Of a stretch of 64,000 nt of DNA, positions 1-25,644 are shown piece by piece (within the stretch, counting starts at the first letter, position 1; each line of letters starts with the position of its first letter). The stretch spans positions 28,054-92,053 of the forward strand of contig JAJYWE010000004.1 of assembly GCA_021791675.1 (NCBI GenBank). The letters are read 5' to 3'. The position numbers were made by a program, and so were the translations under genes. The stretch is from Actinomycetes bacterium (GTDB lineage: Bacteria > Actinomycetota > Acidimicrobiia > Acidimicrobiales > JAKAOS01). The notes under the pieces were generated by a model. That model searched no databases. It was not told the origin of the DNA and saw nothing but the letters and a program-made list of their open reading frames with translations.

Positions 1-789
1 CTGTGGGTGGGCCATCGCCCCGTTGGGCGGTGCGGCGGTGGGCGGTGCGGCGGTGGGTGTCGGTGCCGGGCCGTCGGTGGGGAGGACGAGCGTCCAGCCC
101 GGCCAGATGTCGTTGGGGTCGGTGAGCGCTGCGCCGTCGGGTTGGGGGCGGCCGTCGTTGAGGGCGTAGATCTCCCGCCAGCGCAGCGGGTCGCCGAGTT
201 TGGTGGCGGCGATCCCCCACAGGGTGTCGCCCCGGCGCACGACGTAGAGACGCCCGTTGCTGGTCGTCGCGGCCGATGCCGTGGTCAGCGCAGCGGGGAC
301 ACCGTTGACTGAGGGCGAGGATGTCTGCGCGGCCGGTGGACCAGCGGTCGCCGTGGCGCTGACCGGCGGGTGGGCGGCGCTGAGCAGGACCGCGGATAGC
401 GGCGCCGACGGGCCGGGCGGCCCGGGTCGCAGGCTGAACGAGACCGCGGTGAGGGCAACGGCGGCGACGAGGTGGCCGGCGAAGGGCTGCAGCGCTCCGG
501 CGACTGGTAGGCGCGGGGAGGCGTGGCCACGGACCGCCGCGGCCGCCTCGATGGCCACCGCGGCAGCGAGGATCGCCCAACCGACCCACACCACGCACGC
601 CAGCGCCTTGAGCAGCACGGTGTCGGAGATGGGCGAGGTGAGATCGGCTTGCAGCTGCGCCCAGCCGGGCATGGCATGCGGGAGCGGCCAGCCGATCCCG
701 GCGACGAGGCCGGCGGGGACCCCGACGACGAGGACGGCAAGCACGACGAGGGCGCCGGCGCCGGCGGCGAGGCGGCGGAGGCGGGTCAC
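1..789 (-). CDS. LysM-domain membrane protein, partial (continues past window start)
   Basis: Own minus-strand translation from GTG at 789 (GTGA overlap with the upstream stop at 786-788): VTRLRRLAAGAGALVVLAVLVVG, further hydrophobic segments, then YVVRRGDTLWGIAATKLGDPLRWREIYALN (LysM motif). The frame is open to position 1, so it is absent from the ORF track. Confidence 0.7.
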   Translation of the reverse strand, partial: MTRLRRLAAGAGALVVLAVLVVGVPAGLVAGIGWPLPHAMPGWAQLQADLTSPISDTVLLKALACVVWVGWAILAAAVAIEAAAAVRGHASPRLPVAGALQPFAGHLVAAVALTAVSFSLRPGPPGPSAPLSAVLLSAAHPPVSATATAGPPAAQTSSPSVNGVPAALTTASAATTSNGRLYVVRRGDTLWGIAATKLGDPLRWREIYALNDGRPQPDGAALTDPNDIWPGWTLVLPTDGPAPTPTAAPPTAAPPNGAMAHPQ

Positions 790-1247
790 GGCCCTGCGAC
801 CAGAACGCCGCGCTCCAGTCGGGCTACCCCGGTTCCGGTCACGGTCAGCTGGTTGATCCCGACCAGGTCGAGCAGCTGCATGCGCTGGGTCACCTGCACG
901 GTGACGGTCACCTGGTTGCCGGCGACGCTGACCTGGCCGCTGCTCCCGGCGGCGGCCAGGTAGGCATCGGCGGCGGCTATTGCGGCGGCGGGGTCGACGA
1001 CGACGGTGCCGGTGGCTCGGTAGGTGGTGGTGTCGAGGGCTTGAGCGCCGGCGCGGGCCGCGGCTTGGGCTTCGTCGATGGCTTGGACCTGGGCGGCGAG
1101 GGTGAGGCCGCCGTCGAGGACCAAGCCGGCGAAGGCGAACAGGGCGGCCAGGAAGATGACCACGAACGCGGTGACCTGCCCGGCCTCGTCGTCGCCGCGT
1201 CGCACCCGATTTTCGGGCTCGCGCTCGGAGCAGGGGGAGGGTCTCAC
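786..1247 (-). CDS. TadE/TadG-like pilus assembly protein
   Basis: Track ORF 786..1370 trimmed to GTG at 1247 (GTGA overlap with the stop at 1244). N-terminus DDEAGQVTAFVVIFLAALFAFAGLVLDGG is the TadE/G-type pseudopilin-like helix. Confidence 0.7.
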   Translation of the reverse strand: MRPSPCSEREPENRVRRGDDEAGQVTAFVVIFLAALFAFAGLVLDGGLTLAAQVQAIDEAQAAARAGAQALDTTTYRATGTVVVDPAAAIAAADAYLAAAGSSGQVSVAGNQVTVTVQVTQRMQLLDLVGINQLTVTGTGVARLERGVLVAGP

Positions 1248-1693
1248 TGGGCGGCCCGGTAGACGTCGAGGGGTTCGACGAAGCGGCTGGTGATGGTCTG
1301 GGTTCCCGGTAGGGCCAGCAGGGACAGTCCGGCGAGGCTGGCGGTGCACGAGACGCGCACGGCGACCCACCCGCCGGGGGCGAACGCGGCGGTGTCGGTG
1401 CTCACCGACAGCGGGGCACAGCTCAGGTGGTGGCCGGCGAGGGTGGCGGTGGCGAGTGAGCGTGCGAGGGCGGCGGCGGTGGTCGGGTCGCGGGCCATCG
1501 AGGCGGCCCGGGCTGCTTGGGCGGCGGCGGAGTCGACCTCCAGGCGGGCGCTGGCGAGCCGGCCGAGAGCGACCACGAAGACAAGAACCAAGATGAGCAG
1601 CGGGGTGAGCAGGACCAGCTCGACGGTCGCCCCGCCCCGCTCGTCGGCACGCCAGGGCCAGGCGCGTCGATGACGCTCGTCGGAGGATGTCAT
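1244..1693 (-). CDS. TadE-like protein
   Basis: ERGGATVELVLLTPLLILVLVFVVALGR N-terminal TadE motif; ATGA overlap with the upstream stop at 1690. Confidence 0.75.
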   Translation of the reverse strand: MTSSDERHRRAWPWRADERGGATVELVLLTPLLILVLVFVVALGRLASARLEVDSAAAQAARAASMARDPTTAAALARSLATATLAGHHLSCAPLSVSTDTAAFAPGGWVAVRVSCTASLAGLSLLALPGTQTITSRFVEPLDVYRAAQ

Positions 1694-2187
1694 GGCGTCT
1701 GGCTGGCAGTTCGGAACGCTTCGACGGGGCCGGCCACCGTGGCGTGCACCCCGAGATGCCAGAACGGGATCACCGCTTCGACCTGCGCGGTCACATTCGC
1801 CTGGGCGACCGTGGCGTTGCGGGTGACGGCTACTTGGGGGTGGACGAGCAGGCCGTGGCCGAGCTGGGTGAGCACGCTGGCCGCCTCTGCCTGGCCGGAC
1901 GCCACGCTTCCGCCTTGCAGGCGGGCTGCGGTCATGGCCTGGGTGGCGACGGCTTGGGCGACATGGGCGGCGTGCAGGTAGAGGGCGAACTGGATCACTA
2001 GGACTATGAGCAGCAACAGCAGCGGGGCGGCGATGACCAGCTCGGCGGTCGCCGCCCCCCGCTCGCTCTCACGCCGCCCATGGCGGGCGGTCGTCCCCCG
2101 GTCCCGGGAGTGCCGGCGATCGATGCGCACAGCGGCGTCACAGGGCGGCACGGCGTCACAGGGCGGCACGGTGTCAAAGGGCGGCAC
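1690..2187 (-). CDS. TadE-like protein
   Basis: ERGAATAELVIAAPLLLLLIVLVIQFALYLHA TadE motif. The GTG start lies inside an 18-bp tandem repeat. Confidence 0.7.
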   Translation of the reverse strand: MPPFDTVPPCDAVPPCDAAVRIDRRHSRDRGTTARHGRRESERGAATAELVIAAPLLLLLIVLVIQFALYLHAAHVAQAVATQAMTAARLQGGSVASGQAEAASVLTQLGHGLLVHPQVAVTRNATVAQANVTAQVEAVIPFWHLGVHATVAGPVEAFRTASQTP

Positions 2188-2191
2188 GGTG

Positions 2192-2389
2192 TCAGAGGGT
2201 GATGGAGTGGGCCTTGGCGATGATCAGGGTGACGAGGTAGCCGACGGCTGCCAGGGCGGCGGCGGCGAGCAGCGCGGTGACCAGGATGGTCTCGGTGGTG
2301 TAACCGGCCTCGTCGTGGCGGGCCTCGGCGAGACGGCCACGGATCACGCCGAGCAGGTGGCGGATCACGGCGAATGCTGCGGTGGGCAT
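2192..2389 (-). CDS. Flp-type small pilin-like membrane protein (resembles DUF4244 of actinobacterial Tad loci)
   Basis: Track ORF 2192..2467 trimmed to the internal ATG. The 65-aa product has DEAGYTTETILVTALLAAAALAAVGYLV and sits between tadC and the tadE-like genes, as in the M. tuberculosis Rv3654c-Rv3660c locus. Confidence 0.55.
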   Translation of the reverse strand: MPTAAFAVIRHLLGVIRGRLAEARHDEAGYTTETILVTALLAAAALAAVGYLVTLIIAKAHSITL

Positions 2390-2426: not shown

Positions 2427-3323
2427 TCACAGGGTTCCGAAGACGTGGGCGAGGGCCGGGAAGGCAAGGAAGACCAAGAAGCCGGCGAAGAGCAGCACCA
2501 CCGGCAGGCTCATGGCCTCGGTGGCGGCCTGGGCTTCGCCTTCGGCGTCGGTGAGGGCGTGGGCGCGCAGGCTGGCGGCTTTGGCGGCGAGGGACTCGCG
2601 GACCTTGGCGCCTTCGCTGCCGGCGAGGGACACCGACGCGGCCAGCTCGGAAAGCTCGGTGATGCCGAGCTCGTCGCCGAGACGGCCGAGCGGCCCCCAG
2701 GGGGCAACCCGGCCCAGGCGGGCGGCGTCGAGGGCTCGTCGGAGGGCGGCGAAGGACTCCCCGGCGCCGACCGCGGCAGCGTCGGACAGGGCGGAGTCGA
2801 CCCCGCCGCCCGCGGCGAGGGCGATGACGACCAGGTCCAAGAAGGCGGACAGGGCGTGGCGGAAGTCGGCTCGGCGGCGGGTGGCCTGGGAGTGCAGGGC
2901 GAGGTCGGGGGCGAAGAACCCGCCGACGGCGAGCAGAATGGCCGCCCAGGCGGGGACCGCCCAGCCAACCTGCGCGCCGTCGAGGGCGAGCAGCCCGGCG
3001 GTGGCGGGCCCGAGGACCAGGCCGATCACCGCCAGCGCCGTCTTCTCGGCCAGGTGGGCTTGGGGGTCGCGGCCGATCACCGCCAGGTCGGCGCGCACAC
3101 CCCCAGGCAGGAGGCGCCGGCCGCCGAGCGGGGCGGCGAGGGGTCGGCCGAGGCGGACCAGCGCGCTGTCGGTGCCGGTGGGGACGACCAGAGGCTGCGG
3201 CGGGGCGACCCGGCGGAGCGCGGCGAGCGAGTCGGCCAGGGACGGCCGGGGCGGGCGCAGCCCGGTGGCCACCGCCAGCAGCCCGGCTCCGAAGCCGGCC
3301 CCCCAGACCAGGGCCACGATCAC
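2427..3323 (-). CDS. tadC: TadC-like (type II secretion system F family) membrane protein
   Basis: Track ORF 2427..3407 trimmed to GTG at 3323 (GTGA overlap with the tadB stop). Polytopic membrane protein with a GspF-like C-terminus: EAMSLPVVLLFAGFLVFLAFPAL. Confidence 0.75.
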   Translation of the reverse strand: MIVALVWGAGFGAGLLAVATGLRPPRPSLADSLAALRRVAPPQPLVVPTGTDSALVRLGRPLAAPLGGRRLLPGGVRADLAVIGRDPQAHLAEKTALAVIGLVLGPATAGLLALDGAQVGWAVPAWAAILLAVGGFFAPDLALHSQATRRRADFRHALSAFLDLVVIALAAGGGVDSALSDAAAVGAGESFAALRRALDAARLGRVAPWGPLGRLGDELGITELSELAASVSLAGSEGAKVRESLAAKAASLRAHALTDAEGEAQAATEAMSLPVVLLFAGFLVFLAFPALAHVFGTL

Positions 3324-4189
3324 GGCGCGTCCCCTGCGCCAGGCGAGTCGACAGGGACGGCAAGCAGCCTTGCGGTCGGTTCGGGCCTGGCCATGCGGGC
3401 CAGCCACCCGAACGCTGCGGTGAAGATGGCGCCGACGCCGGCGAGGACCAGCTGGCCGAGCGCCGAGTCATACGGGGCGAGGTAGCCGCTGTCGAGTAGG
3501 GCGAGCCCGGCGGCCATGGCCAGGGTGGCGCCGATCACGACCCGGACGCTGGTGCGGGTGCGGGCCCGGCCGGCTTGGACCCGGAGGCGCATCCCGGCAT
3601 GCTCCCTGGCCGCGGCAGCCAGCGAGCCGAGCAGCTCGCCGAGGCGCCGCGCCCGGTGCTCCACGGCGAGGAGCAGAGCGGCGACGACCAGATCGGCGGT
3701 GGGGTCGGCCAGCTCGTCGGCGAAGGCCCGTAAGGCGGGGGCCAGACGGTCGTGCTCGGCCCGGGCGGCCAGGTGGGCGACCTCGGCGCGGATCGCAAGC
3801 GGGGCGACCGGGGCGGTGGCGGAGATCGCCTGCTCCAGTCCGGCCGCGCCGGCGAGGGTGTCGCGCAGCATCTCGGTCCAGGTGGCGACCGCCTCGATGC
3901 GCGCCGTCGAGGCCGCCTCGGCACCCCGGCCGGCCCACAGCGCCGGGGTGGCCCAGCCGGCCAGGCCGCCCAGGATGGCGCCGACGGGCCAGCGGGTCAC
4001 CGCCCCGACGACCACAGCCGCGCTCAGCGCACCGGCGAGGCGCGCACCGAGGTGCTCCACCCGCGGCCGCCAACGCCTCGGGGCGGCCACGGTGGCCGCT
4101 GTGTCGGCGTCTGCGCCGCGCAGGCCGGCCGCCACGACCATCAGGCCGAGGCCGACTCCGGCGCCGAGCACGGCGGCGAGGGCGGTCAC
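3320..4189 (-). CDS. tadB: TadB-like membrane protein
   Basis: Track ORF 3320..4573 trimmed to GTG at 4189 (GTGA overlap with the tadA stop at 4186). The upstream part of the ORF is Arg/Pro junk overlapping tadA. Confidence 0.75.
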   Translation of the reverse strand: MTALAAVLGAGVGLGLMVVAAGLRGADADTAATVAAPRRWRPRVEHLGARLAGALSAAVVVGAVTRWPVGAILGGLAGWATPALWAGRGAEAASTARIEAVATWTEMLRDTLAGAAGLEQAISATAPVAPLAIRAEVAHLAARAEHDRLAPALRAFADELADPTADLVVAALLLAVEHRARRLGELLGSLAAAAREHAGMRLRVQAGRARTRTSVRVVIGATLAMAAGLALLDSGYLAPYDSALGQLVLAGVGAIFTAAFGWLARMARPEPTARLLAVPVDSPGAGDAP

Positions 4190-5505
4190 CGATCCCACCA
4201 CCCGCCGGGGCGTTCCAGCAGGCCCGGGTCGAACCCGGCGGCGACGAGCGCCTCGGTGGTCTCCGCCCGCAGCGGGGCGCCGGGGACCGCCCGGTTGTCG
4301 GGGCCGGGGCGGAACACCTCGTTGGAGACGACCATCGGCCCCTCGGCGTCGACGACCTCTCGCACCGAGGTCACCACCCGGCGCCCGGTCGCATCCGCGC
4401 CCAGGTGGACGACGAGGTCGACGGCGGTGGCGACCAGCAGGGCGGTGGCCTCCATGGACAGGTGCTCGGGGGCCTGGATGGCGTACGCGGCGAGCTTGGG
4501 AAACGCCGCCCCCGACGAGGAGGCGTGCAAGGTGGCCATCGACCCGTCGTTGCCCTGGCTCATGGCGTTGCACATCGGCACCACCTCGGCGCCGCGGATC
4601 TCGCCGACGAGCACCCGGTCAGGCGACATGCGCAGCGCCCAGCGGACCAGCTCGGCCTGGGTGATCTCCCCCTCGCCCTCCACGTTCGGCTCCCGGGCCT
4701 CCAAGGCGACCACGTCGGGGTGGGCGTCGACATCGGCGTCCAAGGCGAGCTCGAGGGAGTCCTCGATGGTCACCAGCCGCTCTGCCGGCGCTATCTCGGC
4801 GCACAGGGCGCGAAGCGTGGTGGTCTTGCCCGACCCGGTGCCCCCGACGACCAGGATGTTCTTGCGGGCTCGTACCGCGGCGCCGAGCATCTCGCGCAGT
4901 ACCAGGTCGAGGGTGCCGAGGCCGACCAGGTCGTCGCAGGTGAGCTTGGCGAACCGGTGCCGGCGGATCGACACCGCGGGGCGGCCGGTGACGGCCATCA
5001 CCGCGAACAGCCGGGACCCGTCCGGCAGTTGCAGGGACAGCCGCGGGCAGCCCAGGTCGAAGCGCCGCTCCCCCAACCCGGCGCGGGCGGCGAGGGTGCG
5101 GACCAGGTCGACCAGCTCGGTGTCGGACTCCGCCACCGCGCCGACGCGCTCGCGCTGGCCGTCCGCGTAGCGGACGAAGACCCGGTCCGCGCCGTTGACG
5201 TTGATGTTCTCGATCGAGTCGTCGTCCAGCAGCGGCTGGAGGCCGGCCAGGGCGAACACCGCGTCCATCGCCGCCTTGGCCACCGCCTGCTCCTGTGCCG
5301 GGGAGAGGACCTGGTCGCCTCGGGCGAGGGCGTCGGTGGCGGCCCGGTCGAGCACCTCTGCGATCAGCGCCCGACCGTACGCACGCTGGTCCTCGTCGCC
5401 GAGGCGCGGCCTTCCGGCGTCCTCATCGGCGCGGGCTCTGACGGTGATCGCCTCGGTCACCTCGGCCCGGCAGCGGGCCACCAGCGCCCGCTCGGCCGGT
5501 GTCAT
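4186..5505 (-). CDS. tadA: TadA/CpaF-family secretion ATPase
   Basis: Walker A VVGGTGSGKTTTLRAL, Walker B-like ERLVTIEDSLEL and LVGEIRG motifs, typical of VirB11/CpaF ATPases. Confidence 0.9.
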   Translation of the reverse strand: MTPAERALVARCRAEVTEAITVRARADEDAGRPRLGDEDQRAYGRALIAEVLDRAATDALARGDQVLSPAQEQAVAKAAMDAVFALAGLQPLLDDDSIENINVNGADRVFVRYADGQRERVGAVAESDTELVDLVRTLAARAGLGERRFDLGCPRLSLQLPDGSRLFAVMAVTGRPAVSIRRHRFAKLTCDDLVGLGTLDLVLREMLGAAVRARKNILVVGGTGSGKTTTLRALCAEIAPAERLVTIEDSLELALDADVDAHPDVVALEAREPNVEGEGEITQAELVRWALRMSPDRVLVGEIRGAEVVPMCNAMSQGNDGSMATLHASSSGAAFPKLAAYAIQAPEHLSMEATALLVATAVDLVVHLGADATGRRVVTSVREVVDAEGPMVVSNEVFRPGPDNRAVPGAPLRAETTEALVAAGFDPGLLERPGGWWDR

Positions 5506-6332
5506 CGCCTACCTGCCCGGGCCGGCGCCGAAGCAGCCTCGGTGGCGTGTCTCCTGGTGGCATCAGCGTCGCCGGCATCCTCGCCCGGCCAGCTCGACGG
5601 CTCTCCCGTGCTCGGCGGGGCACCAGCGCTGAGCCGGGCGCAGATCGCTTCGGCGAGGCTGCGCGCTCCGCGCAGCAACGCCAGACGCCCGAGCGCCCGG
5701 GGGTTGGCTGCCCCGCCGGCGAGGAGGGCGGCGCCGCCGGGGTCGTCGGCCAGCACGCCGAGCACCTCGACCTCCAACGCCTCGGCGACCTCGGCGCGCG
5801 GGTAGGCCCCGGCGCCGACCAGCACCACGCCGAGCTGGGCGGCTGCTGGGCGCAGGGCCTCGACCCGGGCGGCGAGGTGGTGCAACTCGGCGAGCACCGG
5901 ACGGGCGCACACGACCAGCAGCTCGCAGCTGGCAACCAGGCCCAGGGTGGCCGAGCGCGGGTCGAGGCGGCCGGCGTCGACGAGCACGTCACCGTCGACG
6001 TCGCAGAGCACGGCGCCGGTGGGTCCGAGCATGCCGAGCGCAGCCTGGGTCTGCTCAGCCGACGCCGGGGCGACCAGCACGGCCAGCCCGCCGGGCAGGT
6101 GCTGGACGTGGCGGGCGGCGAGGGCGCGGGTGGGCTGGTTGCGGGCGGCGGCGGCCAGGGTGAGCAGGCTCGGCTCGGCGGCCAGCCCGTAGCGGGCGGC
6201 GAGGTCCCCGCCGGCCGGGTCGGCCTCCACCAAGGTCACCTGGCGGCCCGCCGGCCACGCCGCGCCGAGCGCCACCGCGGTGGTGGTCACCCCCGGCGAG
6301 GCCTTCACCGAGGCCAGCGCCACCGCGCTCAC
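5502..6332 (-). CDS. ParA/MinD-like protein with degenerate P-loop (Ssd/TadZ-like)
   Basis: Track ORF 5502..6992 trimmed to GTG at 6332 (GTGA overlap with the stop at 6329; ATGA overlap with the tadA start). ASVKASPGVTTTAVALG replaces KGGxGKT, as in Ssd-type proteins of actinobacterial Tad loci. Confidence 0.65.
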   Translation of the reverse strand: MSAVALASVKASPGVTTTAVALGAAWPAGRQVTLVEADPAGGDLAARYGLAAEPSLLTLAAAARNQPTRALAARHVQHLPGGLAVLVAPASAEQTQAALGMLGPTGAVLCDVDGDVLVDAGRLDPRSATLGLVASCELLVVCARPVLAELHHLAARVEALRPAAAQLGVVLVGAGAYPRAEVAEALEVEVLGVLADDPGGAALLAGGAANPRALGRLALLRGARSLAEAICARLSAGAPPSTGEPSSWPGEDAGDADATRRHATEAASAPARAGRR

Positions 6333-7108
6333 GACCCTGCCCCCGACGACCCTGCCCCCGACGACACTGCCCCTGACGACGCTGTCCCCGACATGGGGAC
6401 GACGACCAGGCTGGCCTGGCCGCCGCCCGCGGCGTCGGCCAGGGCGGGGGCGTCGGCGAGGCGCACCTGGAGGCTGACCACGGTGTCGGTGCCCCCGTTG
6501 GCCCCAGGCGCCTGCACGCCGACCACCACCGCCGGGGTCGGCCCGAGCGGAACGATCCCACCCGTCGAGCCGGTCCCGGCACCCGAACCGGCACCTGTGG
6601 CGGTGGCGGGCGCGGTGACGACCAGGACGTGGTCGCCGGCGGCAACATCGGGCGGGAAGCCACCCGGTTTGAGCGCCACCGCCACCTCGGCCTGCCCGGC
6701 CGGCAGAGCCACCGGCGGCCCGAGATCCGCTGGGCTGAGCAGGCTGCCGGCGACAAGCGGCACCGCTGCGGCGCGCCCGACCACGCTGGCCTTCTCGCCT
6801 GCGGGCAGCGTCGCGACCCCCGGCGCGGAGACCTGGACCACGCCCAGGTCGGCGACGGTGATCACCCCGCCGGCGGGCAACGAGGAGCGCAGCTCGAGCA
6901 CCCCGGCGCGCCCACCGACTTGTATCGAGGTGGCGGCGAAACCCAAGGCGCAGCCGACCACCACCACGATCCCGATCCCCACCCGGGGCCACTGGCGGCG
7001 CCGTCTCGCCCCTCCCAGGCGCAACGCCCCATCCGGCCCTCCCGTAGTGGTGGCGGCCGGCGCCTCCTTGGTGCCGTTGGTGGAGGTGGGTGGCGAAAAG
7101 GTGGGCAA
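6329..7108 (-). CDS. CpaB/RcpC-like SAF-domain pilus assembly protein
   Basis: N-terminal RRRRQWPRVGIGIVVVVGCALGF anchor, then a SAF-like segment LPAGGVITVADLGVVQV. TTG at 7108 is preceded by AAAGGAG; the track start at 7258 is an alternative. Confidence 0.6.
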   Translation of the reverse strand: MPTFSPPTSTNGTKEAPAATTTGGPDGALRLGGARRRRQWPRVGIGIVVVVGCALGFAATSIQVGGRAGVLELRSSLPAGGVITVADLGVVQVSAPGVATLPAGEKASVVGRAAAVPLVAGSLLSPADLGPPVALPAGQAEVAVALKPGGFPPDVAAGDHVLVVTAPATATGAGSGAGTGSTGGIVPLGPTPAVVVGVQAPGANGGTDTVVSLQVRLADAPALADAAGGGQASLVVVPMSGTASSGAVSSGAGSSGAGS

Positions 7109-7145
7109 CGCTGGGGCTCCTTTCGATGCACTCGGCCGGATCGGC

Positions 7146-8773: not shown

Positions 8774-8902
8774 GCGCCCAGGCTTGCCAACCACCCAGGT
8801 TGCAGCAAGGGGCAACCGCAGTAGCGCTCAGGTGCGACTCAGATCACACAACCCTCCCAGCCCTCGTCCCTCTGCAGCGCTCGGCGCCAGAACCGTTGGT
8901 GG

Positions 8903-18706: not shown

Positions 18707-19644
18707 GGGTTGCACCTCTGCTCGGCGGAAGGGACGGCAGGCCCGGTGCCGGGGACGGGGGCCGGCCGGCGACGGGCGACACCTCCTCGGGTGGCTCGCT
18801 TCGATAGGTGCGTCGGCGCAAACGACGACCCGCCGGCCGGGTCCCCGTCCCCGGTGGACCCGCACTCCTCCAATCCGCGTTTTGGCGCCAAACGCGACAC
18901 CTCCATTTCGAGATTTCTTTGCGCCAGCCAGGAGCGGACCCGGGTCTCGGCTCGCTGGCGCCGCCGGCGCAGGGTGTGGGCGTCGGTCCCGAGCTGAGCG
19001 GCGAGGGCGGGCAGGTAGATCCCGCCGAGGCGGGTGGCGCTGATCAGCTCGGCGTGGAACGCGCCGATAACCCCGGCGGCCACCGCCTCGGCGAGGACCA
19101 GGTCCGGGTGCCCCCACGGGCGGGGCGGGGCGGCGGAGAACACCGAGTGGCCCCGGCGGGCGGCGGCGGCCGCCTCGCGCCTGCAGGCGGCGCGCCCGCC
19201 GCGGTAGGCGGCCCAGCACAACCGACCTGGCAGGTGCCCGGCGGCGGTGTCGAGGTGGGCGAGGGCGTCGAGGAAGCCGGTGAGGATCTCGGCGTCGGCC
19301 TCTACGGTGTCGACGCCCGGGTAGTCGGCGACCAGCCGGGCGGCCACCCGTCGAAGCCCGGGCAGCGCCACCCCCGCCGCGCCGACCGTCCACGACGGCC
19401 CGGCGGAGCGGGACCGGCCGACCAGCTCGCCCCAGGCGGCCTCCCGGGCCGGGTAGCCGGTGGAGGGGTGCAGCAGGATCGACTTCAGCTCCCCGAGGGG
19501 GATCGTCCGGCGGGGCAGGCCGTGACCCAGAGCGGCCCCGTCGAGGAACAGGGGATCGGGGCCGTCGACCAGCATGGCGAACGCGGCGTCGAGGACCTCC
19601 AGCGGGCCGGGCTGCTCTGGCTCGCGGTGACGGTTGTGTGACAT
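18703..19644 (-). CDS. putative regulator with sigma-70 region-4-like HTH
   Basis: ATG at 19644. LPALAAQLGTDAHTLRRRRQRAETRVRSWL is HTH-like. The last 80 or so codons are low-quality and contain a 35-bp regulatory element. Confidence 0.5.
   Translation of the reverse strand: MSHNRHREPEQPGPLEVLDAAFAMLVDGPDPLFLDGAALGHGLPRRTIPLGELKSILLHPSTGYPAREAAWGELVGRSRSAGPSWTVGAAGVALPGLRRVAARLVADYPGVDTVEADAEILTGFLDALAHLDTAAGHLPGRLCWAAYRGGRAACRREAAAAARRGHSVFSAAPPRPWGHPDLVLAEAVAAGVIGAFHAELISATRLGGIYLPALAAQLGTDAHTLRRRRQRAETRVRSWLAQRNLEMEVSRLAPKRGLEECGSTGDGDPAGGSSFAPTHLSKRATRGGVARRRPAPVPGTGPAVPSAEQRCNP
18867..18901 (-). promoter_or_regulatory. 35-bp palindrome-containing element, copy 1 (upstream of the VirB2-like operon)
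   Basis: The reverse complement GGTGTCGCGTTTGGCGCCAAAACGCGGATTGGAGG matches 21267-21301 at 32/35. Core palindrome CGCGTTT-N6-AAACGCG. Confidence 0.6.
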
Positions 19645-20158: not shown

Positions 20159-20593
20159 TCAGCTGTTGAGGTAGTCGCTGATCACCAGGCTGGTCAGCAC
20201 CGCAGCGCCCCGTCGCCGCGGCGATGCCGCCAACGGGAGGACCCGCACGCCCGCCGTCGCCAGGCGCTTCTCGATCCATGCCCGCTGGTTTGGGTCTCGG
20301 CAGAGGCGGTCGAGGTCGTCGACGACCACGATCTCGAACCAGCCGGCTGCGGCGTCGGCGAGCAGGCGGCCCAGGCCCGGCCGGTCGAGCCGGCCGGAGC
20401 CGACATCGGCGTAGCCGGCGACCAGGTGCCAGCCGGGCCGGGCGGCCACCACCGAGGCGAGGTGGGACTGGCGGCGCTCCAGGTTGGACGGGCGGTGCCG
20501 GTCCACGGCGACCACCCGGGTGTAGGCGGCGACCCCGACCGCCGGCCGCGGGTAGACGGCCTCCCCTTGCCCGCGCCCTGGGTTACCTGTCAC
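20159..20593 (-). CDS. stand-alone serine-recombinase catalytic-domain homologue lacking the nucleophile serine
   Basis: GTG at 20593 (GTGA overlap). VAAYTRVVAVD aligns with the YxRVST motif (the LSR at 23761 has VATYTRISTDE); DRPGLGRLLADAAAGWFEIVVVDDLDRLCR is classic resolvase. Confidence 0.65.
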   Translation of the reverse strand: MTGNPGRGQGEAVYPRPAVGVAAYTRVVAVDRHRPSNLERRQSHLASVVAARPGWHLVAGYADVGSGRLDRPGLGRLLADAAAGWFEIVVVDDLDRLCRDPNQRAWIEKRLATAGVRVLPLAASPRRRGAAVLTSLVISDYLNS

Positions 20594-21165
20594 CGTGGCT
20601 CGCCGGTCTGGGCGTGGCGGTAGCGGCGCGGCCCGGCCGTTGTCTGCACGGCGAGCCCGTCTTCGACCATGCGGGCGAGAGCGTTGCCGATCGCCCCGGC
20701 ACTGCGACCCAGCAGGGACCCAAGGCGGCTGGGAGTGAACTCCACCTCGGGCTCCGCGGCGAGGTGTGCGGCGACCAGCGCCCGTAGCTGCCCTCGCCCG
20801 AGGTGCCCCTCGACGCCCCGATCCCCGTCGGGGAGAACTGCGCTCCGGTCCGTTCGAGCGAGCTGTAGCTGATCTGCGGTGGTGAGCGCCGGTTGTGGCA
20901 GGGACCAGCGGTCGGCCAGCCGCCGGCCCCGTTCCCGCCCGCCGGGGCTGCGCGCCACCCGGTGGTCTGCGCCGAGGGCGGCGAGCGCCTTGGTCACCGT
21001 CGAGCGGCCCAGGCCTGTCGCCACCGCCACCTCCTCGGCGGTGGTGCCGGGACTGCCAGCGAGAGCGGCGAGCACCGCCTCGCTGGTAGCGGTGCCGCCC
21101 CCAGGGCGCCCATCCCGGGCGGCGCTGCTCGGGGAACGCTGCGGTGCTGCGGTGGTCACGGTCAT
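20590..21165 (-). CDS. double winged-helix (MarR-like) DNA-binding protein
   Basis: Two wHTH-like units: TTAEEVAVATGLGRSTVTKALAAL and SRLGSLLGRSAGAIGNALARMVEDGL. Confidence 0.6.
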   Translation of the reverse strand: MTVTTAAPQRSPSSAARDGRPGGGTATSEAVLAALAGSPGTTAEEVAVATGLGRSTVTKALAALGADHRVARSPGGRERGRRLADRWSLPQPALTTADQLQLARTDRSAVLPDGDRGVEGHLGRGQLRALVAAHLAAEPEVEFTPSRLGSLLGRSAGAIGNALARMVEDGLAVQTTAGPRRYRHAQTGEPR

Positions 21166-21335: not shown

Positions 21336-22313
21336 ATGCCAATCTCCCCGTCTTCTCCGTCTCCTGTTCCCCCTCCGACCTCGACCGAGGACGAGGCGGT
21401 CCCGCTCACCGTGTGGCCGGTCGCCCAGGTCTCCGCGCAGCACCAGCGCGCCGGGCGCTACCTGCCCAGCTGCGCCGCCCATCCCGGCAAGATGATCCCC
21501 GCCCTCGCCCGGCGCATCATCGAGGCCTACTCGGCGCCCGGAGACCTGGTCCTCGACCCGATGGCAGGGGTCGGCACAACCCTCATCGAGGCCGCCGCGC
21601 TCGGCCGGCGCTGCGTCGGTGTCGAGCTCGAGGACCGCTGGGTGACCCTCGCCCGTGCCAACCTCGACCACGTCCTGCCCTCGCCAGCCCGATCGCTGGC
21701 CGAGGTGCGCCAGGGTGACGCCCGGTCCCTTCCGGGCCTGCTCGGCGACCTCGCCGGCCGGGTCGACCTGATCATCACCTCCCCGCCGTATGCCTGTGAC
21801 GCGGGGGTGATCGACAAGGGCGCATGGCTCGCGGGGGCGAGGCTGTGTGACCGGGAGAGCCTGAACTACTCGACCAGCCGCAACAATCTCGGCCACGCCC
21901 GAGGCGAGGCCTACCTCGCCGAGATGGCCCAGGTGTACGCCGGGTGCTGCACGGTGTTGCGCCCCGGCGGGCTGATGGTCACGGTGACCAAGAACATGCG
22001 CCGCAGCGGCCGCCTCGTCGACCTGGCAGGGATCACCGTGAGTCTCGCCCATGACGCCGGGTTCGCCTACCTCCAGCACGTGATCGCCCTGCTCGGCGCG
22101 GTCCGCGACAGCGAGCTGGTCGCACACCCGAGTTTCTGGCAGCTGCGCCAGACTCGCCTCGCCAGGGCGAACGGCCACCCGGTGCACCTCACCGTGCACG
22201 AGGACGTCCTGGTCTTCCAGACGCCGGCATGTCCCTCGACTTCAGCGCAACCTCACGATCAGCGTGCCGTCGCCGAGGCCGGGCCGGCCGAGGGAGGAGC
22301 GATCCGTGGCTGA
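21336..22313 (+). CDS. SAM-dependent amino-methyltransferase (SPPY motif), paralogue 1
   Basis: Motif I VLDPMAGVGTT and motif IV ITSPPY. The track start at 21144 overlaps the divergent gene, so it is trimmed to ATG at 21336. Confidence 0.8.
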   Translation: MPISPSSPSPVPPPTSTEDEAVPLTVWPVAQVSAQHQRAGRYLPSCAAHPGKMIPALARRIIEAYSAPGDLVLDPMAGVGTTLIEAAALGRRCVGVELEDRWVTLARANLDHVLPSPARSLAEVRQGDARSLPGLLGDLAGRVDLIITSPPYACDAGVIDKGAWLAGARLCDRESLNYSTSRNNLGHARGEAYLAEMAQVYAGCCTVLRPGGLMVTVTKNMRRSGRLVDLAGITVSLAHDAGFAYLQHVIALLGAVRDSELVAHPSFWQLRQTRLARANGHPVHLTVHEDVLVFQTPACPSTSAQPHDQRAVAEAGPAEGGAIRG

Positions 22314-23238
22314 GCCCACCCGCCGCTGCGAGCTGCCGCTGTCGGTGTGGCCGACCGCCCAGCAGACCTCCCGGACCCAGCGGACCGGGCGTTACCTGCC
22401 CGAGTCGACCGCCCATCCGGCCCGGATGCTGCCCGCCACCGCCCGGCGGGCCATCGAGGCCTACACCGCCCCCGGCGAAGTTGTGCTCGACCCGATGTGC
22501 GGGATCGGCACCACCCTGGTCGAAGCCATCCACCTCGGCCGCCAAGCGGTCGGCGTGGAGTACGAGCCCCGCTGGGCCGACCTGGCCAGAGCGAACCTGA
22601 TCGACGCAGAGACCGGCGGCGCCGCGGGCGACTGGCAGGTTCACACCGGCGACGCCCGTAGCCTCCACCACCTGATCGACACGGCGCTCGCCGGCCGGGT
22701 GGCGTTGGTGCTCACCTCCCCGCCCTACGGGTCCTCCCTGCACGGGCAGGTCCGGGCTCGCCCAGGCCAGGGGGTGGCCAAGGCGGACTGCGCTTACTCG
22801 GCCGACCGGGCCAACCTCGCCCACGTCGGCACCGACAAGCTCCTCGCCGGCTTCACCGACATCCTCGCCGCCTGCGTGCCCTTGCTGCGCCCCGGCGGGA
22901 TCGTGGCGGTCACCGCCCGCCCCTGGCGCAGCCGCGGCGCGCTGGTCGACCTGCCCTCCGCCGTGTTCGCCGCCGGTGAGGCCGCCGGACTGCTCCCCTA
23001 CGAACGCCTCGTCGCGCTGCTGGTCGGGCTGCGCGGCGACACCCTGGTGCCCCGGGCGAGCTTCTTCGCTCTCGACCAGGTCCGCAAAGCCCGCCGGCGG
23101 GGCTGCCCACTGCGGGTGATCGCCCACGAGGACGTCCTCGTGCTGCGCAAACCGTCAAAGCACATGGGTTCAGGGGGATCGAAGGAGCTTCGACGCGAGC
23201 CTGGATGCAGGGCGAGCACGTCGGTGGTGGCACCGTGA
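22264..23238 (+). CDS. SAM-dependent amino-methyltransferase (SPPY motif), paralogue 2
   Basis: VLDPMCGIGTT and LTSPPY; co-linear similarity to paralogue 1 throughout. An alternative GTG start at 22306 overlaps the upstream stop. Confidence 0.8.
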   Translation: MPSPRPGRPREERSVAEPTRRCELPLSVWPTAQQTSRTQRTGRYLPESTAHPARMLPATARRAIEAYTAPGEVVLDPMCGIGTTLVEAIHLGRQAVGVEYEPRWADLARANLIDAETGGAAGDWQVHTGDARSLHHLIDTALAGRVALVLTSPPYGSSLHGQVRARPGQGVAKADCAYSADRANLAHVGTDKLLAGFTDILAACVPLLRPGGIVAVTARPWRSRGALVDLPSAVFAAGEAAGLLPYERLVALLVGLRGDTLVPRASFFALDQVRKARRRGCPLRVIAHEDVLVLRKPSKHMGSGGSKELRREPGCRASTSVVAP

Positions 23239-23524: not shown

Positions 23525-23560
23525 AACGGGGCGAGTGGGCCTTGATCCGCCCGCCCCGTT
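23525..23560 (+). terminator. GC-rich hairpin downstream of the methyltransferase cluster
   Basis: AACGGGGCG (23525-23533) pairs with CGCCCCGTT (23552-23560). No U-tract. Confidence 0.35.
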
Positions 23561-23608
23561 GAGGTCTCCTCGGGTCAGCCATAACCAACAGAGCAGAGGA
23601 GAAACGAC

Positions 23609-23764
23609 ATGCGGCTCGCCACTGACACCCAGGTCGCCATACCCGACCGGTACCGATCGGTCGGAGTGGGCCGCCAAGGCCACCTCGTCGCCCGGCCAGC
23701 GCCGCCCGTCCCCGGCCCCGGTGGGGAGGAGCCGGCCGGCGCGGTCAGCGGGGTGGGGCGGTGA
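23609..23764 (+). CDS. 51-aa ORF translationally coupled to the serine recombinase
   Basis: GAGGAG lies 7 nt upstream of ATG at 23609; the stop forms a GTGA overlap with the recombinase GTG at 23761. Below the ORF-track size cutoff; own translation MRLATDTQVAIPDRYRSVGVGRQGHLV... Confidence 0.35.
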   Translation: MRLATDTQVAIPDRYRSVGVGRQGHLVARPAPPVPGPGGEEPAGAVSGVGR

Positions 23765-25644
23765 GAGTCGCCACCTACACCCGGATCTCCACCGACGAGG
23801 CCCACCAGCCCTACTCCCTCGAAGCCCAGGCCACCCGGCTCGGCTCCTACATCGCCAGCCAGGACGACTGGAGCTTGGTCCGCCAGTTCTCCGACCAGGC
23901 CTCCGGGGCGAGCACCGAGCGCCCCGAGCTCACCCGGGCACTCACCGAGGCCCGAGCCGGACGCTTCGACCTGCTCCTCGTCTACCGGGTGGACCGCTTC
24001 GCCCGCTCGGTGCGCGGCCTGGCCACCCTCCTCGAGCAACTGGACTCTGCTGGGGTGGCGTTCCGCTCGGCCACCGAACCCTTCGACACCGCCACTCCCG
24101 CCGGGCGGATGATGGTCCAGATGCTCGGGGTGTTCGCCGAGTTCGAACGCTCGACGATCATCGACCGGGTCATCGCCGGCATGGAACGCAAAGCCGCCCG
24201 AGGCGAATGGTGCGGAGGGTCCCGCCCCTACGGCTACGCCATCGACCCGGCCAGCGGCCACCTCGTCCCCGTGGAGACCGAGGAGCCTGTCGTCAAGGCC
24301 ATCTTCGACCGCTACACCCGCGGCCGGGCGGGCTTGAAGACCGTCGCCAACTGGCTCAACACCCGAGGCCATCGCACCAAGAGCGGCAGGCCCTGGAACC
24401 ACATGGCCGTGCTCACCGTGCTGAGAAACCGGGCCTACCTGGGTGAGGTGTACTTCCGGGACGCCTACCACCCCGCCCCACACCGCCCGCTGGTCGATCC
24501 CGACACCTTCGATCTCGCGCAGCGTATCCTCGCCACCCGGGGCGAGGACTACTCGCATCGGGCCGCCAACGCCAGCGACTACCTGCTCGCCGGGCTGCTC
24601 ACCTGCGCCAGCTGCGGCAAGCGTTTCGTCGGCACCGCCGCGCATGGCAACCGCTACCGGTACCGCTACTACACCTGCTTCTCCCGCCAGCGCTACGGCA
24701 CCGACACCTGCAACGCCGAACGCCTCCCCGCCGACGCCCTCGACACCGCAGTCCTCAACGCCCTCCTCGACACCTACACCCGAACCGACCTGTTCGAAAC
24801 AGCATTGGCCGCCGGGGCCGAACGCGCCGGGGCGGTACGGGCCCAACACCAAGCCGAGCTCGCCGTCGTCGACGCCGAGGCCGCCCGGACCGAGGAGGCC
24901 ATCGAGCGCTACCTGCTCGCCTTCGAAGCCGGCACCCTGCCCGAAGCCCAATGCGGGCAGCGCATCCGGACCCTCGGCGCCAAAGCTGCCGAGCTGCGCA
25001 CCCGGCGGGCCGAGCTGGTCGATCTGATCGCCGCCGCCAAGGAACCCGAGGCGCAGCGGGCCACCCTCGACGCCATCCGCGACCACCTCGCCGAGACGAT
25101 CCGAAGTGGCGAGGCCGCCACCAAGAAGGGTCTCCTGCAGAACCTCGTCCACGACATCCGCGTCGAAGGCCGCCACAACATCAAGCCGTACTTCCGCCTA
25201 CCCATCGGGCCCACGACGGTGACGAACCCTGACCCCTCCACGCAGGGCCAAAAGGTTCGTACACCGTCAGGACCGGTGCCCCCGGCAGGACTCGAACCTG
25301 CGACCCGCTGCTTAGAAGGCGTCATGCGGGGCATCCACGGACGTCCAGGACCATATTTGGCCTGCCCAAACAGATCTGGAGCGAGCCCCACGACACCCCC
25401 TCTTCGCCCCCGGTGGCTACCGCTGTGGCTACCACCAACTCGACTACCTTCTCGGCTCAAGTCGTCGACCCCCTCGAGGCGGCTCGGTGCCAGTTCTCCC
25501 ACTCGTCGAGCCACCGTCGCTCCGCGGAGCGGCACGCCGCGACCCCGCTCGCCAACCCAGGGGGCCATCCTTCTGCGTAGCCCTGAGGGTCCTGCTCTCG
25601 CCAGCGCTGATAGTTGGCATTGTGGGCCGCTGTTCGTCTCCTGA
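23761..25644 (+). CDS. large serine recombinase (functional 3' end uncertain: the frame reads through the att/tRNA fragment)
   Basis: VATYTRISTDE nucleophile motif, a recombinase domain, a zinc ribbon CASCGKRF...YYTCFSRQRYGTDTC and a coiled coil. No stop occurs before 25642-25644. Confidence 0.9.
   Translation: MRVATYTRISTDEAHQPYSLEAQATRLGSYIASQDDWSLVRQFSDQASGASTERPELTRALTEARAGRFDLLLVYRVDRFARSVRGLATLLEQLDSAGVAFRSATEPFDTATPAGRMMVQMLGVFAEFERSTIIDRVIAGMERKAARGEWCGGSRPYGYAIDPASGHLVPVETEEPVVKAIFDRYTRGRAGLKTVANWLNTRGHRTKSGRPWNHMAVLTVLRNRAYLGEVYFRDAYHPAPHRPLVDPDTFDLAQRILATRGEDYSHRAANASDYLLAGLLTCASCGKRFVGTAAHGNRYRYRYYTCFSRQRYGTDTCNAERLPADALDTAVLNALLDTYTRTDLFETALAAGAERAGAVRAQHQAELAVVDAEAARTEEAIERYLLAFEAGTLPEAQCGQRIRTLGAKAAELRTRRAELVDLIAAAKEPEAQRATLDAIRDHLAETIRSGEAATKKGLLQNLVHDIRVEGRHNIKPYFRLPIGPTTVTNPDPSTQGQKVRTPSGPVPPAGLEPATRCLEGVMRGIHGRPGPYLACPNRSGASPTTPPLRPRWLPLWLPPTRLPSRLKSSTPSRRLGASSPTRRATVAPRSGTPRPRSPTQGAILLRSPEGPALASADSWHCGPLFVS
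25278..25320 (-). repeat. distal att repeat: 43-bp copy of the tRNA-Arg 3' half
   Basis: Identical to 53231-53273. Lacks the 5' half of the tRNA, so it is not a functional tRNA. Confidence 0.9.
25413..25433 (+). promoter_or_regulatory. putative integrase arm-type sites, distal end
   Basis: GTGGCTACC at 25413 and 25425 (12-bp spacing); related CGACTACC at 25441. Confidence 0.45.

What the first reader, a model, noticed from the sequence alone, without database searches (positions are those of the whole stretch)
1..25277. Tad/Flp pilus operon co-linear with a T4SS-type conjugative module next to a large serine recombinase
Seen: every supported gene from position 1 to 21165 is on the minus strand. 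At least 14 junctions are 4-nt GTGA/ATGA start-stop overlaps: 789, 1247, 1693, 3323, 4189, 5505, 6332, 10883, 11776, 16195, 17115, 20593, plus 1-nt overlaps.
The Tad set (SAF/CpaB-like, Ssd-like ParA, TadA/B/C, Flp-like, three TadE/G-like, LysM) is separated from the T4SS set only by a secreted protein, a lipoprotein and a Crp/Fnr regulator. The T4SS set comprises VirB1, relaxation protein, VirD4, split VirB4, VirB6 and VirB2.
Established: T4SS-type ICEs exist in Actinobacteria, but Tad loci are normally described as chromosomal adhesion/colonisation loci.
Inference: if the ICE left end lies beyond position 1, this ICE carries a complete Tad pilus. That pilus could serve as a mating or adhesion organelle alongside a VirB2-like pilin.
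Basis: partly seen in the sequence, partly recalled or inferred. Interest (0 to 1): 0.75.

Follow-up and report, generated by a model that had tools for sequence, protein, structure and literature searches.

The report
Conjugative element carrying a Tad pilus
An integrated conjugative element in an Acidimicrobiales-like chromosome carries a Gram-positive-type DNA-transfer machine and a Tad/Flp pilus gene set as one inherited block, and the same pairing recurs on Streptomyces-family plasmids, so the pilus belongs to the element, though its role in transfer is untested.

Summary
Window 1-21165 is one minus-strand array. It holds a Tad/Flp module (Crp regulator to LysM-BTAD) directly downstream of a Gram-positive-type T4SS module. 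Two DNA methylases and a large serine recombinase (LSR) follow on the plus strand.

The T4SS-Tad block behaves as one unit. Two Acidimicrobiales relatives carry it in one unbroken alignment at 86% nucleotide identity, with a different flank beyond BTAD. Three independent assemblies span the T4SS/Tad junction. The pairing recurs in Embleya (twice, one on a 325-kb linear plasmid), Streptomyces, Jatrophihabitans and further metagenome contigs, either co-linear or convergent.

The link is asymmetric. Of 11 loci found through TadA, 6 sit beside this T4SS. Only 1 of 20 metagenome loci found through the relaxase has Tad within 10 kb. Tad is therefore an accessory module, not core transfer machinery.

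The LSR family sits on tRNA-Arg. The 43-bp repeat belongs to a second element inserted later. The left end of the first element was not found.

The mating-pilus role is plausible by analogy with R64 and PAPI-1 but untested. Cutibacterium acnes plasmids are a published precedent. I rate it a new variant of a known kind, of moderate interest.

The parts
1..789 (-). N-terminal part of the terminal Tad-module gene, a membrane LysM-BTAD protein (941 aa in full; it continues left of the window)
   Evidence: Pfam LysM. The full gene with BTAD is seen in L001. It is the last gene of the Tad module in L010, L012, L014, L102, L108 and L111.
786..1247 (-). TadG-like pseudopilin
   Evidence: Weak Pfam Tad hit and NCBIfam TadE_Rv3655c hit. 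It is 50% identical to the Embleya 'TadG-related' protein.
1244..1693 (-). TadE pseudopilin
   Evidence: Pfam TadE, E 7.5e-11; G/GATVE motif.
1690..2187 (-). TadE pseudopilin
   Evidence: Pfam TadE, E 4.3e-09; G/AATAE motif.
2192..2389 (-). Flp-like prepilin (65 aa)
   Evidence: No model hit. It has the expected position and size, a G/YTTET motif and a hydrophobic tail. It matches the Embleya and Streptomyces counterparts by tblastn.
2427..3323 (-). TadC platform protein
   Evidence: Pfam T2SSF.
3320..4189 (-). TadB platform protein
   Evidence: No Pfam hit. It is 53% identical to an annotated T2SS-F protein in L010 and has 4 hydrophobic segments.
4186..5505 (-). TadA/CpaF ATPase
   Evidence: Pfam T2SSE, E 7e-35. 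Homologues are named CpaF.
5502..6332 (-). ParA/MinD-like protein (TadZ/Ssd position)
   Evidence: Only a weak MinD hit, E 8e-4. The gene is conserved at this position in all relatives.
6329..7108 (-). SAF/CpaB-like protein
   Evidence: Pfam SAF and a weak NCBIfam CpaB hit.
7146..8093 (-). Secreted protein of the Tad module
   Evidence: Signal-peptide-like N-terminus. It is conserved upstream of Tad in L010, L012, L014 and L102.
8075..8626 (-). Lipoprotein of the Tad module
   Evidence: LAGC lipobox and a weak LpqN hit. It is conserved in L010 and L012.
8903..9643 (-). Crp/Fnr regulator, first gene of the Tad module
   Evidence: Pfam cNMP_binding and HTH_Crp_2. A Crp gene heads Tad loci that have no T4SS on that side: L107, L110 and L111.
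9909..10883 (-). Cell-wall hydrolase (SLT + M23) in the VirB1 role
   Evidence: Pfam SLT and Peptidase_M23. In other relatives the C-terminal domain is NlpC/P60 instead.
10880..11776 (-). Replic_Relax putative relaxase
   Evidence: Pfam PF13814, E 2.4e-49.
11773..14376 (-). VirD4-like coupling protein
   Evidence: Pfam TraG-D_C, TrwB_AAD_bind and T4SS-DNA_transf.
14435..16195 (-). VirB4 ATPase
   Evidence: Pfam P-loop_TraG and AAA_10; PDB 4AG5, E 9e-35.
16192..17115 (-). PrgI (VirB3-like) protein with a 200-aa extension
   Evidence: Pfam PrgI, E 2.5e-17. The extension is unassigned.
17112..18296 (-). VirB6-like polytopic membrane protein
   Evidence: Precomputed Pfam TrbL_3; 8 hydrophobic segments.
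18296..18706 (-). VirB2-like T4SS pilin
   Evidence: Pfam T4SS_pilin, E 3e-17.
18703..19644 (-). Conserved first gene of the T4SS module, function unknown
   Evidence: No family hit. It is conserved upstream of the pilin gene in 15 or more loci.
20159..21165 (-). MarR-like double wHTH ORF overlapping a small ORF that has only the resolvase catalytic domain
   Evidence: Pfam. The pair travels with the LSR block in L104.
21411..23238 (+). Two N6/N4 DNA methyltransferases
   Evidence: Pfam. They lie next to the T4SS in L006, L012, L048, L065, L088 and L093, and next to the LSR in L104 and L105.
23761..25277 (+). Large serine recombinase (the ORF reads on to 25644 through the tRNA fragment)
   Evidence: Pfam Resolvase, Recombinase and Zn_ribbon_recom. 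Homologues are 505-560 aa. Its arm into tRNA-Arg is shared with L104 and L105.
25278..25320 (.). Displaced 3' fragment of tRNA-Arg: junction between the LSR element and the second element
   Evidence: Exact 43-bp repeat of 53231-53273.
53229..53303 (-). Intact tRNA-Arg(tct), chromosomal anchor of both elements; purK and purE follow
   Evidence: ARAGORN; Pfam for purK and purE.

Best explanation
Window 1-25277 is the right-hand part of an integrated conjugative element in an Acidimicrobiales-like chromosome.

Transfer core (shown by domain content). It is a Gram-positive-type T4SS: VirB2-like pilin, VirB6-like protein, PrgI/VirB3, VirB4, a VirD4 coupling protein, a Replic_Relax relaxase and an SLT+M23 wall hydrolase.

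Tad module (shown). It lies directly downstream on the same strand as a self-contained unit: Crp regulator, lipoprotein, secreted protein, CpaB-like, ParA-like, TadA/B/C, Flp, three pseudopilins and a membrane LysM-BTAD protein.

One unit (shown by comparison). The roughly 22-kb T4SS-Tad block is inherited and moved as one piece.

Integration (inferred from three junctions). A large serine recombinase at the right end placed the element at the T-arm of tRNA-Arg. A second element of the FtsK/TraB type, carrying a tyrosine integrase, later entered the same tRNA and created the 43-bp repeat.

Role of Tad (inferred, not shown). The T4SS moves the DNA. The Tad pilus is an accessory that the element brings along and its Crp regulator controls. 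It most likely makes or stabilises contact with recipient cells or surfaces where mating happens, as the thin type IVb pilus of IncI plasmids does. It depends on a host prepilin peptidase.
For: Domain content.

One unit:
- L102 (TadA 92% identical; named Acidimicrobiales MAG) and L103 align to the window and its left extension in a single 86% HSP from -1894 to 15585. Per-500-nt identity is 79-93%, similar in both modules.
- Beyond the BTAD 3' end the flanks are unrelated: an Hma defence system in one genome, Pyr_redox_2 and UbiE genes in the other.
- Independent assemblies L097, L098 and L100 span the T4SS/Tad junction.

Recurrence:
- Same order and strand in the Embleya NBC_00896 linear plasmid and in Embleya NBC_00888.
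- Convergent arrangement in Streptomyces BHT-5-2, Jatrophihabitans, L111 and L057.
- All 3 PLSDB records with this relaxase carry Tad.
- TadA-anchored sampling: 6 of 11 loci lie next to this T4SS, and 2 more lie next to other conjugation-type ATPase clusters.

Chromosomal site: three tRNAs plus purK and purE.

LSR at tRNA-Arg:
- In L105 the LSR stop lies inside an intact tRNA-Arg(ccg), which is followed by argS.
- The same element-side arm is present in the window, L104 and L105.

Analogy: the R64/TP114 type IV pilus aids mating, and the PAPI-1 pilus is essential for transfer (PMC12857230, PMC9045228).
Against: - From the T4SS side Tad is dispensable. Only 1 of 20 relaxase-anchored metagenome loci with at least 6 kb downstream has any Tad gene within 10 kb, and Lentzea L005 has none. 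Tad-linked members are scattered in a VirD4 tree.
- Tad loci of the same lineage exist with no T4SS in the flank I could see: L013, L107 and L110.
- The left end of the element was not found.
- A 93%-identical LSR block (L104) lies next to ECF-sigma and ABC genes instead of a T4SS, so the LSR and the T4SS-Tad block are separable.
- No prepilin peptidase is present.
- No expression, excision or transfer data exist.
- The element already encodes a VirB2-like pilin, which may be enough for contact (bioRxiv 10.64898/2025.12.18.695078).
Confidence: 0.6

Rival explanations
1. Tad is cargo. The element carries the pilus as a host-benefit trait for surface, particle or host colonisation and biofilm formation. 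The pilus has no role in DNA transfer.
For: - The module has its own Crp regulator and occurs without a T4SS in the flank I could see (L107, L110, L013).
- Most relatives of this T4SS lack it.
- Tad is the classic horizontally moved colonisation island and the type IV filament most often on plasmids (PMC6668835).
- Defence cargo (Hma) lies right beside it.
Against: - The pairing recurs across two actinobacterial classes in two different arrangements, which points to selection for linkage.
- At least two other conjugation gene sets also sit beside Tad: the Kitasatospora plasmid and the C. acnes plasmids (PMC5696575).
- This rival and the best explanation are not mutually exclusive.
Confidence: 0.3
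2. The Tad pilus serves DNA uptake (natural transformation), as in Micrococcus luteus, or works on the recipient side, rather than in donor adhesion.
For: In M. luteus the Flp/Tad pilus is required for transformation and showed no adhesion phenotype (PMC4322843, as also cited in PMC5696575).
Against: No ComEA, ComEC or DprA genes lie in the block. The linkage is to a donor-side T4SS and relaxase.
Confidence: 0.05
3. The adjacency is chance. A resident chromosomal Tad locus happens to lie beside an inserted T4SS element, or the assembly made a chimeric join.
For: - Two assemblies break at window 9967-10107.
- Identity to L102 dips to 73% at 9543-10037.
- Many Acidimicrobiales carry TadA proteins 65-72% identical.
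Against: - Three other assemblies span the junction at 99.8-100% identity.
- L102 and L103 keep the same junction, with similar divergence on both sides.
- The same junction order is present in two complete Embleya replicons.
Confidence: 0.05

Closest known systems
Cutibacterium acnes linear plasmids p15.1.R1 / pIMPLE-HL096PA1 (PMC5696575)
   Same: An actinobacterial mobile element with a tad locus directly downstream of conjugation genes. The authors also asked whether the Flp pili are linked to conjugation.
   Different: It is a plasmid, not an integrated element. The paper describes an FtsK-like translocase, VirB4 and TcpC. No C. acnes record appears among the 3 PLSDB hits to this relaxase, so it is a different conjugation lineage. 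I could not fetch its sequence.
IncI1/IncI2 plasmids (R64, TP114): T4SS plus an accessory type IVb thin pilus (PMC12857230, PMC9045228)
   Same: A conjugative element that encodes, beside its T4SS, a separate type IV filament that helps donor-recipient contact. The T4SS works without it under some conditions.
   Different: Those are Gram-negative, with a Dot/Icm-like T4SS and a T4b pilus carrying PilV adhesins, not Tad. There is no homology beyond the superfamily level.
PAPI-1 / ICEclc-type islands of Pseudomonas (PMC12857230)
   Same: An integrated element at a tRNA gene that needs a type IV pilus for transfer.
   Different: They are proteobacterial. Few T4SS homologues were recognised, a tyrosine integrase is used, and the pilus is essential rather than facultative.
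T4SS-type ICEs of Actinobacteria (Ghinet et al. 2011, PMC3218068) and monoderm conjugation systems (PMC3548315)
   Same: VirB4 plus a coupling protein in an integrated actinobacterial element. The VirB4 resembles Firmicutes CD1110-type ATPases.
   Different: That survey required a MOBF relaxase, whereas this element has Replic_Relax. It did not report Tad. It called serine-recombinase integration into tRNA genes rare.
Embleya sp. NBC_00896 plasmid unnamed2 (NZ_CP108778.1), region 274-300 kb
   Same: Gene-for-gene synteny from the pilin gene to BTAD on one strand, with 40-59% protein identity.
   Different: It is a linear plasmid. Four other genes stand in place of the Crp gene, and the hydrolase has an NlpC/P60 domain. 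It is only annotated, not described as far as I could find, and is typed 'non-mobilizable'.

Membership tests
Tad/Flp pilus system | TadA/CpaF secretion ATPase | tested here: met
   Pfam T2SSE, E 7e-35. Homologues are named CpaF.
Tad/Flp pilus system | Two platform proteins, TadB and TadC | tested here: met
   TadC hits Pfam T2SSF. TadB is assigned only by 53% identity to an annotated T2SS-F protein.
Tad/Flp pilus system | Small Flp prepilin plus TadE/F-type pseudopilins with a G/xxxxE-type processing motif | tested here: met
   Two Pfam TadE proteins with G/xxxxE. The Flp candidate has G/YTTET, with the Glu at +4 rather than +5.
Tad/Flp pilus system | Dedicated prepilin peptidase (TadV/CpaA, peptidase A24) | tested here: not met
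   No A24 hit in any window protein. tblastn with the Kitasatospora A24 protein finds nothing in the window or the fetched loci. A host copy elsewhere cannot be excluded.
Tad/Flp pilus system | CpaB-like and TadZ/CpaE-like accessory proteins | tested here: inconclusive
   SAF with a weak CpaB hit (E 1.8e-5) and a weak MinD hit (E 8e-4), both below the curated cut-offs.
T4SS-type integrative conjugative element | Relaxase, coupling protein and VirB4 together | tested here: met
   Replic_Relax, a VirD4-like protein and VirB4 in one array. The relaxase activity of Replic_Relax is assumed from the family name.
T4SS-type integrative conjugative element | Site-specific recombinase at one end, next to a chromosomal attachment site | tested here: met
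   An LSR at 23761-25277 abuts the tRNA-Arg fragment. In L105 a homologue overlaps an intact tRNA-Arg.
T4SS-type integrative conjugative element | Both ends defined (attL and attR) | tested here: not met
   No tRNA-end remnant lies between -8757 and 25277. The left end lies further out or has decayed.
T4SS-type integrative conjugative element | Excision and transfer | not testable with these tools
   This needs reads or an experiment.
Gram-positive (monoderm) T4SS | VirB4 of the monoderm type, VirB3/PrgI, VirB6-like protein, wall hydrolase, small two-helix pilin | tested here: met
Gram-positive (monoderm) T4SS | VirB8/TcpC-like channel protein | tested here: not met
   No Pfam or NCBIfam hit. 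The only unassigned T4SS-module gene is 18703-19644. Structure was not compared.
IncI-type 'T4SS plus accessory type IV pilus' plasmids | T4b pilus genes (PilQ/R/S/V) with a shufflon adhesin | tested here: not met
   The filament here is Tad, and there are no PilV or shufflon features. The resemblance is functional only.
Actinomycete ICE of the FtsK/TraB type (AICE) | A single FtsK/SpoIIIE-like TraB as translocase | tested here: not met
   Region 1-25277 has none. The neighbouring element has one at 38235-39977.

The most novel reading that the evidence does not exclude
Across Actinomycetota, from Acidimicrobiia to Streptomycetaceae, a lineage of Tad pili with a terminal membrane LysM-BTAD protein has become a dedicated mating organelle of Gram-positive-type conjugative elements. 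It finds or holds recipients for a T4SS that has its own VirB2-like pilin. Tad 'colonisation islands' in these bacteria would then be, in large part, conjugation accessories.
Probability: 0.25. Interest if true: 0.7.

Novelty: new variant of a known kind. Interest (0 to 1): 0.5.

Why it matters
How Gram-positive conjugation systems find and hold recipients is still open. Adhesins were assumed to do this, and VirB2-like pilins were proposed only recently. A Tad pilus that travels with a T4SS in several actinobacterial lineages gives a concrete hypothesis that can be tested genetically.

It also names a vehicle for the long-noted horizontal spread of tad islands.

The analysis exposes a gap in current typing. 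Replicons with this T4SS and a Replic_Relax relaxase are scored 'non-mobilizable', so surveys under-count them.

It adds a further case of a serine recombinase that targets a tRNA gene.

Tried and rejected
- Third 43-bp repeat: absent from the 8.7-kb left extension, and shorter tRNA-end motifs are absent too. The repeat belongs to the second element.
- Walking further left failed.
- Inverted or direct repeats between the BTAD end and the LSR end: only 11-nt chance matches.
- tRNA genes at the left breakpoints of L001, L102 and L103: none.
- Promoter and terminator scan of 7900-10200: nothing found, which is uninformative at 74% G+C.
- 'Split VirB4': the PrgI extension has no sequence match in the PDB.
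- C. acnes plasmid sequences are not in the collections.
- Chimeric assembly was considered because two assemblies break at 9967-10107. I rejected it because three assemblies span the junction.
- Single acquisition of Tad within the T4SS family: the VirD4 tree shows Tad-linked members scattered.

Full report
**Observation**

The window is 72-78% G+C over the first 24 kb. A GC3-based gene call places every gene from 1 to 20593 on the minus strand. The MarR-like ORF 20590-21165 is supported by Pfam and by an independent gene call. All 12 listed junctions are GTGA or ATGA start-stop overlaps, and each coincides with an ORF end. One 1-nt overlap lies at 18296.

Pfam, NCBIfam and PDB comparisons confirm both gene sets.

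- Tad module, read along the minus strand from 9643 down to position 1 and beyond: Crp/Fnr, lipoprotein, secreted protein, SAF/CpaB-like, ParA/MinD-like, TadA, TadB, TadC, a Flp-like 65-aa prepilin, TadE, TadE, TadG-like, and a LysM-BTAD membrane protein. The last gene is 941 aa in full and is truncated by the window edge.
- T4SS module (19644 down to 9909): a conserved unknown, T4SS_pilin, a TrbL_3/VirB6-like protein, PrgI, VirB4, a VirD4-like protein, Replic_Relax, and SLT+M23.
- Upstream: a MarR-like ORF coupled to a resolvase-domain ORF, then two N6/N4 methylases and a large serine recombinase (LSR) on the plus strand.

- 'Split VirB4' is unproven.
- No prepilin peptidase is present.
- The three 'spacer' genes belong to the Tad module, because Crp and its neighbours head Tad loci that have no T4SS on that side.

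**Source and integrity of the sequence**

TadA homologues at 91-92% identity come from contigs named Acidimicrobiales MAG. tRNA-Arg, tRNA-His, tRNA-Lys, purK and purE at 53-56 kb indicate a chromosome.

In the JGI assembly of sample 3300039716 the region is split into two contigs that overlap by 127 nt at window 9967-10093. An ENA assembly breaks at 10107. Three other assemblies span the point: L097 covers 6135-11052, L098 covers 8205-10630 and L100 covers 8556-10337, at 99.8-100% identity. The T4SS/Tad join is therefore real.

**Is Tad inside the mobile unit?**

The closest relatives are L102 (NCBI MAG GCA_054610895.1) and L103. Both carry VirB4, VirD4, relaxase, SLT/M23, Crp, the Tad genes and BTAD in the same order.

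L102 aligns to the window and its left extension as a single 86% HSP from -1894 to 15585. Identity per 500 nt is 79-93% in both modules. The only dip, to 73%, is at 9543-10037, which covers the spacer between the hydrolase and Crp genes and the hydrolase 3' end.

Homology stops about 140 nt before the BTAD stop codon. Beyond that point the window strain has a complete Hma defence system (HmaC, HmaB, HmaA). L102 has Pyr_redox_2, DUF7712 and UbiE-type genes instead.

So there is no boundary between 8.1 and 9.9 kb, and the block from BTAD to the T4SS behaves as one unit set in different surroundings.

**Recurrence elsewhere**

In PLSDB the best VirB4 hits and the best TadA hits fall in the same three records.

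- Embleya sp. NBC_00896, 325-kb linear plasmid: the whole array from pilin to BTAD is co-linear on one strand.
- Embleya sp. NBC_00888: likewise co-linear.
- Streptomyces sp. BHT-5-2, Jatrophihabitans lederbergiae, metagenome locus L111 and probably L057: Tad-BTAD converges on the T4SS from 2-15 kb away.
- All three PLSDB records with this relaxase carry Tad.
- A Kitasatospora linear plasmid pairs a related Tad (TadA 48%, with its own A24 peptidase) with a more divergent conjugation cluster.
- L108 pairs Tad-BTAD with a 1488-aa DUF87/TrwB-like ATPase.

**The link is asymmetric**

A relaxase-profile scan of metagenomes returned 80 loci with the same T4SS backbone. Of the 20 loci with at least 6 kb downstream of the relaxase, only L057 has any Tad gene, by tblastn. 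A Pfam family count over 130 downstream proteins listed no Tad family. What follows instead is a wall hydrolase, a MarR gene, often an LSR of another lineage, and then unrelated genes.

In a VirD4 neighbour-joining tree the Tad-linked members are scattered.

From the Tad side, sampling anchored on TadA gives 6 of 11 loci beside this T4SS and 2 more beside other conjugation-type ATPases.

Tad is thus an accessory module that keeps company with these elements. It is not a core part of the transfer machine.

**Integration**

LSR homologues are 505-560 aa. The window ORF of 627 aa is a read-through into a tRNA fragment.

In L105 (LSR 78% identical) the LSR stop lies inside an intact tRNA-Arg(ccg), which is followed by argS and lysA. 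The window, L104 and L105 share the element-side arm AAAAGGTTCGTACACCGTCAGGAYCGGTGCCCCCGGCAGG. In the window and in L105 this arm runs into the tRNA T-arm. In L104 it diverges right after GGCAGG.

I infer that this LSR family integrates at tRNA-Arg and supplies the 3' end of the tRNA.

The exact 43-bp repeat (25278-25320 and 53231-53273) flanks a second element. That element carries an FtsK/TraB-like gene, a tyrosine integrase, a sortase, a large surface protein and IS copies. It would have entered the rebuilt tRNA later.

No tRNA-end remnant occurs between -8757 and 25277, so the left end of the first element is unknown.

L104 (LSR 93% identical) has the small resolvase, MarR, two methylases and the LSR, but ECF-sigma and ABC genes stand where the window has the T4SS. 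The methylase pair lies beside the T4SS in six other loci. Together these support one composite element whose modules can be exchanged.

**Mechanism**

- Shown: domain content, synteny, junctions and distribution.
- Inferred: the T4SS transfers relaxase-bound DNA, the LSR integrates the element at tRNA-Arg, and the Tad module, under its own Crp regulator and dependent on a host prepilin peptidase, builds a pilus.

I favour an accessory contact or adhesion role that benefits transfer. The reasoning is by analogy with the R64/TP114 thin pilus and with PAPI-1 (PMC12857230, PMC9045228). The main rival is pure cargo for colonisation. A DNA-uptake role as in M. luteus (PMC4322843) is a minor rival.

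**Comparison with what is known**

Tad is the type IV filament most often found on plasmids and most often transferred (PMC6668835). C. acnes linear plasmids carry tad just downstream of VirB4, TcpC and FtsK-like genes, and the authors left the link to conjugation open (PMC5696575).

A 2025 T4SS review lists hybrids with type IV pili and ESX systems but does not mention Tad. The 2011 actinobacterial ICE survey required MOBF relaxases and did not report Tad. I found no description of the T4SS-Tad-BTAD block or of this LSR's tRNA-Arg site in five full-text searches.

**Verdict**

- The inference that the element carries Tad is supported.
- The mating role is untested.
- The claim that Tad loci are normally chromosomal is overstated.

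I rate it a new variant of a known kind, with interest 0.5.

Noticed in passing
window 25321-53230: A second integrated element, bounded by the exact 43-bp tRNA-Arg repeat. It carries an FtsK/SpoIIIE TraB-like gene (38235-39977), a sortase (33010-33939) next to a 1364-aa fn3 surface protein (33959-38053), a tyrosine integrase (30616-31554) and several IS copies. G+C falls to 0.58-0.68 at 25-30 kb.
   Followed up: partly
window 23761-25320; L105 10001-11586; L104 10001-11581: The large serine recombinase family sits on tRNA-Arg genes (tct here, ccg in L105). It has a conserved element-side arm that supplies the tRNA 3' end. The literature calls serine-recombinase integration into tRNA genes rare (PMC3218068).
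   Followed up: partly
L001 12109-18850 (window about -2016 to -8757): A complete Hma defence system (HmaC, HmaB and the HmaA C-terminus; PADLOC E = 0 for two of them) converges on the BTAD gene and overlaps its last 21 nt. The 86%-identical relative L102 lacks it.
   Followed up: partly
window 26973-28601: One ORF combines a Druantia DruA-like domain with DDE_Tnp_1_assoc and DDE transposase domains. It has no PADLOC hit.
   Followed up: no
window 9909-10250 and the same gene in L010 and L111: The wall hydrolase keeps its SLT domain but swaps the C-terminal endopeptidase domain: M23 here, NlpC/P60 in Embleya, L111 and seven metagenome loci. Two assemblies break inside this domain, and identity to L102 dips to 73% there.
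   Followed up: partly
window 20159-21165; L104 6456-7450; L105 9615-10004: A small ORF with only the resolvase catalytic domain overlaps by 4 nt a MarR-like ORF with two wHTH domains. This could be a two-piece recombinase or regulator. The pair travels with the LSR block, and in L105 the small ORF sits directly upstream of the LSR.
   Followed up: no
L010, L012, L014 (PLSDB records NZ_CP108778.1, NZ_CP081497.1, NZ_CP108785.1): Two of these replicons, which carry a full T4SS with a Replic_Relax gene, are typed 'non-mobilizable' by MOB-suite. The third is typed 'mobilizable' with a MOBP relaxase. The Replic_Relax relaxase family appears to be invisible to that typing scheme.
   Followed up: no
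window 46048-46785: A dense cluster of direct and inverted repeats (116-nt pair at 97%, 75-nt pair at 89%, 59-nt inverted pair) lies in a lower-G+C stretch (0.63) inside the second element. No gene was called there.
   Followed up: no
window 56449-56598: Tandem copies of a 30-nt unit lie inside ORF 56313-58142 (weak impB/mucB/samB hit).
   Followed up: no
L012 5038-5123: In Streptomyces sp. BHT-5-2 a tRNA-Leu(gag) lies about 2 kb beyond the methylase end of the T4SS-Tad region. It may be that element's integration site.
   Followed up: no
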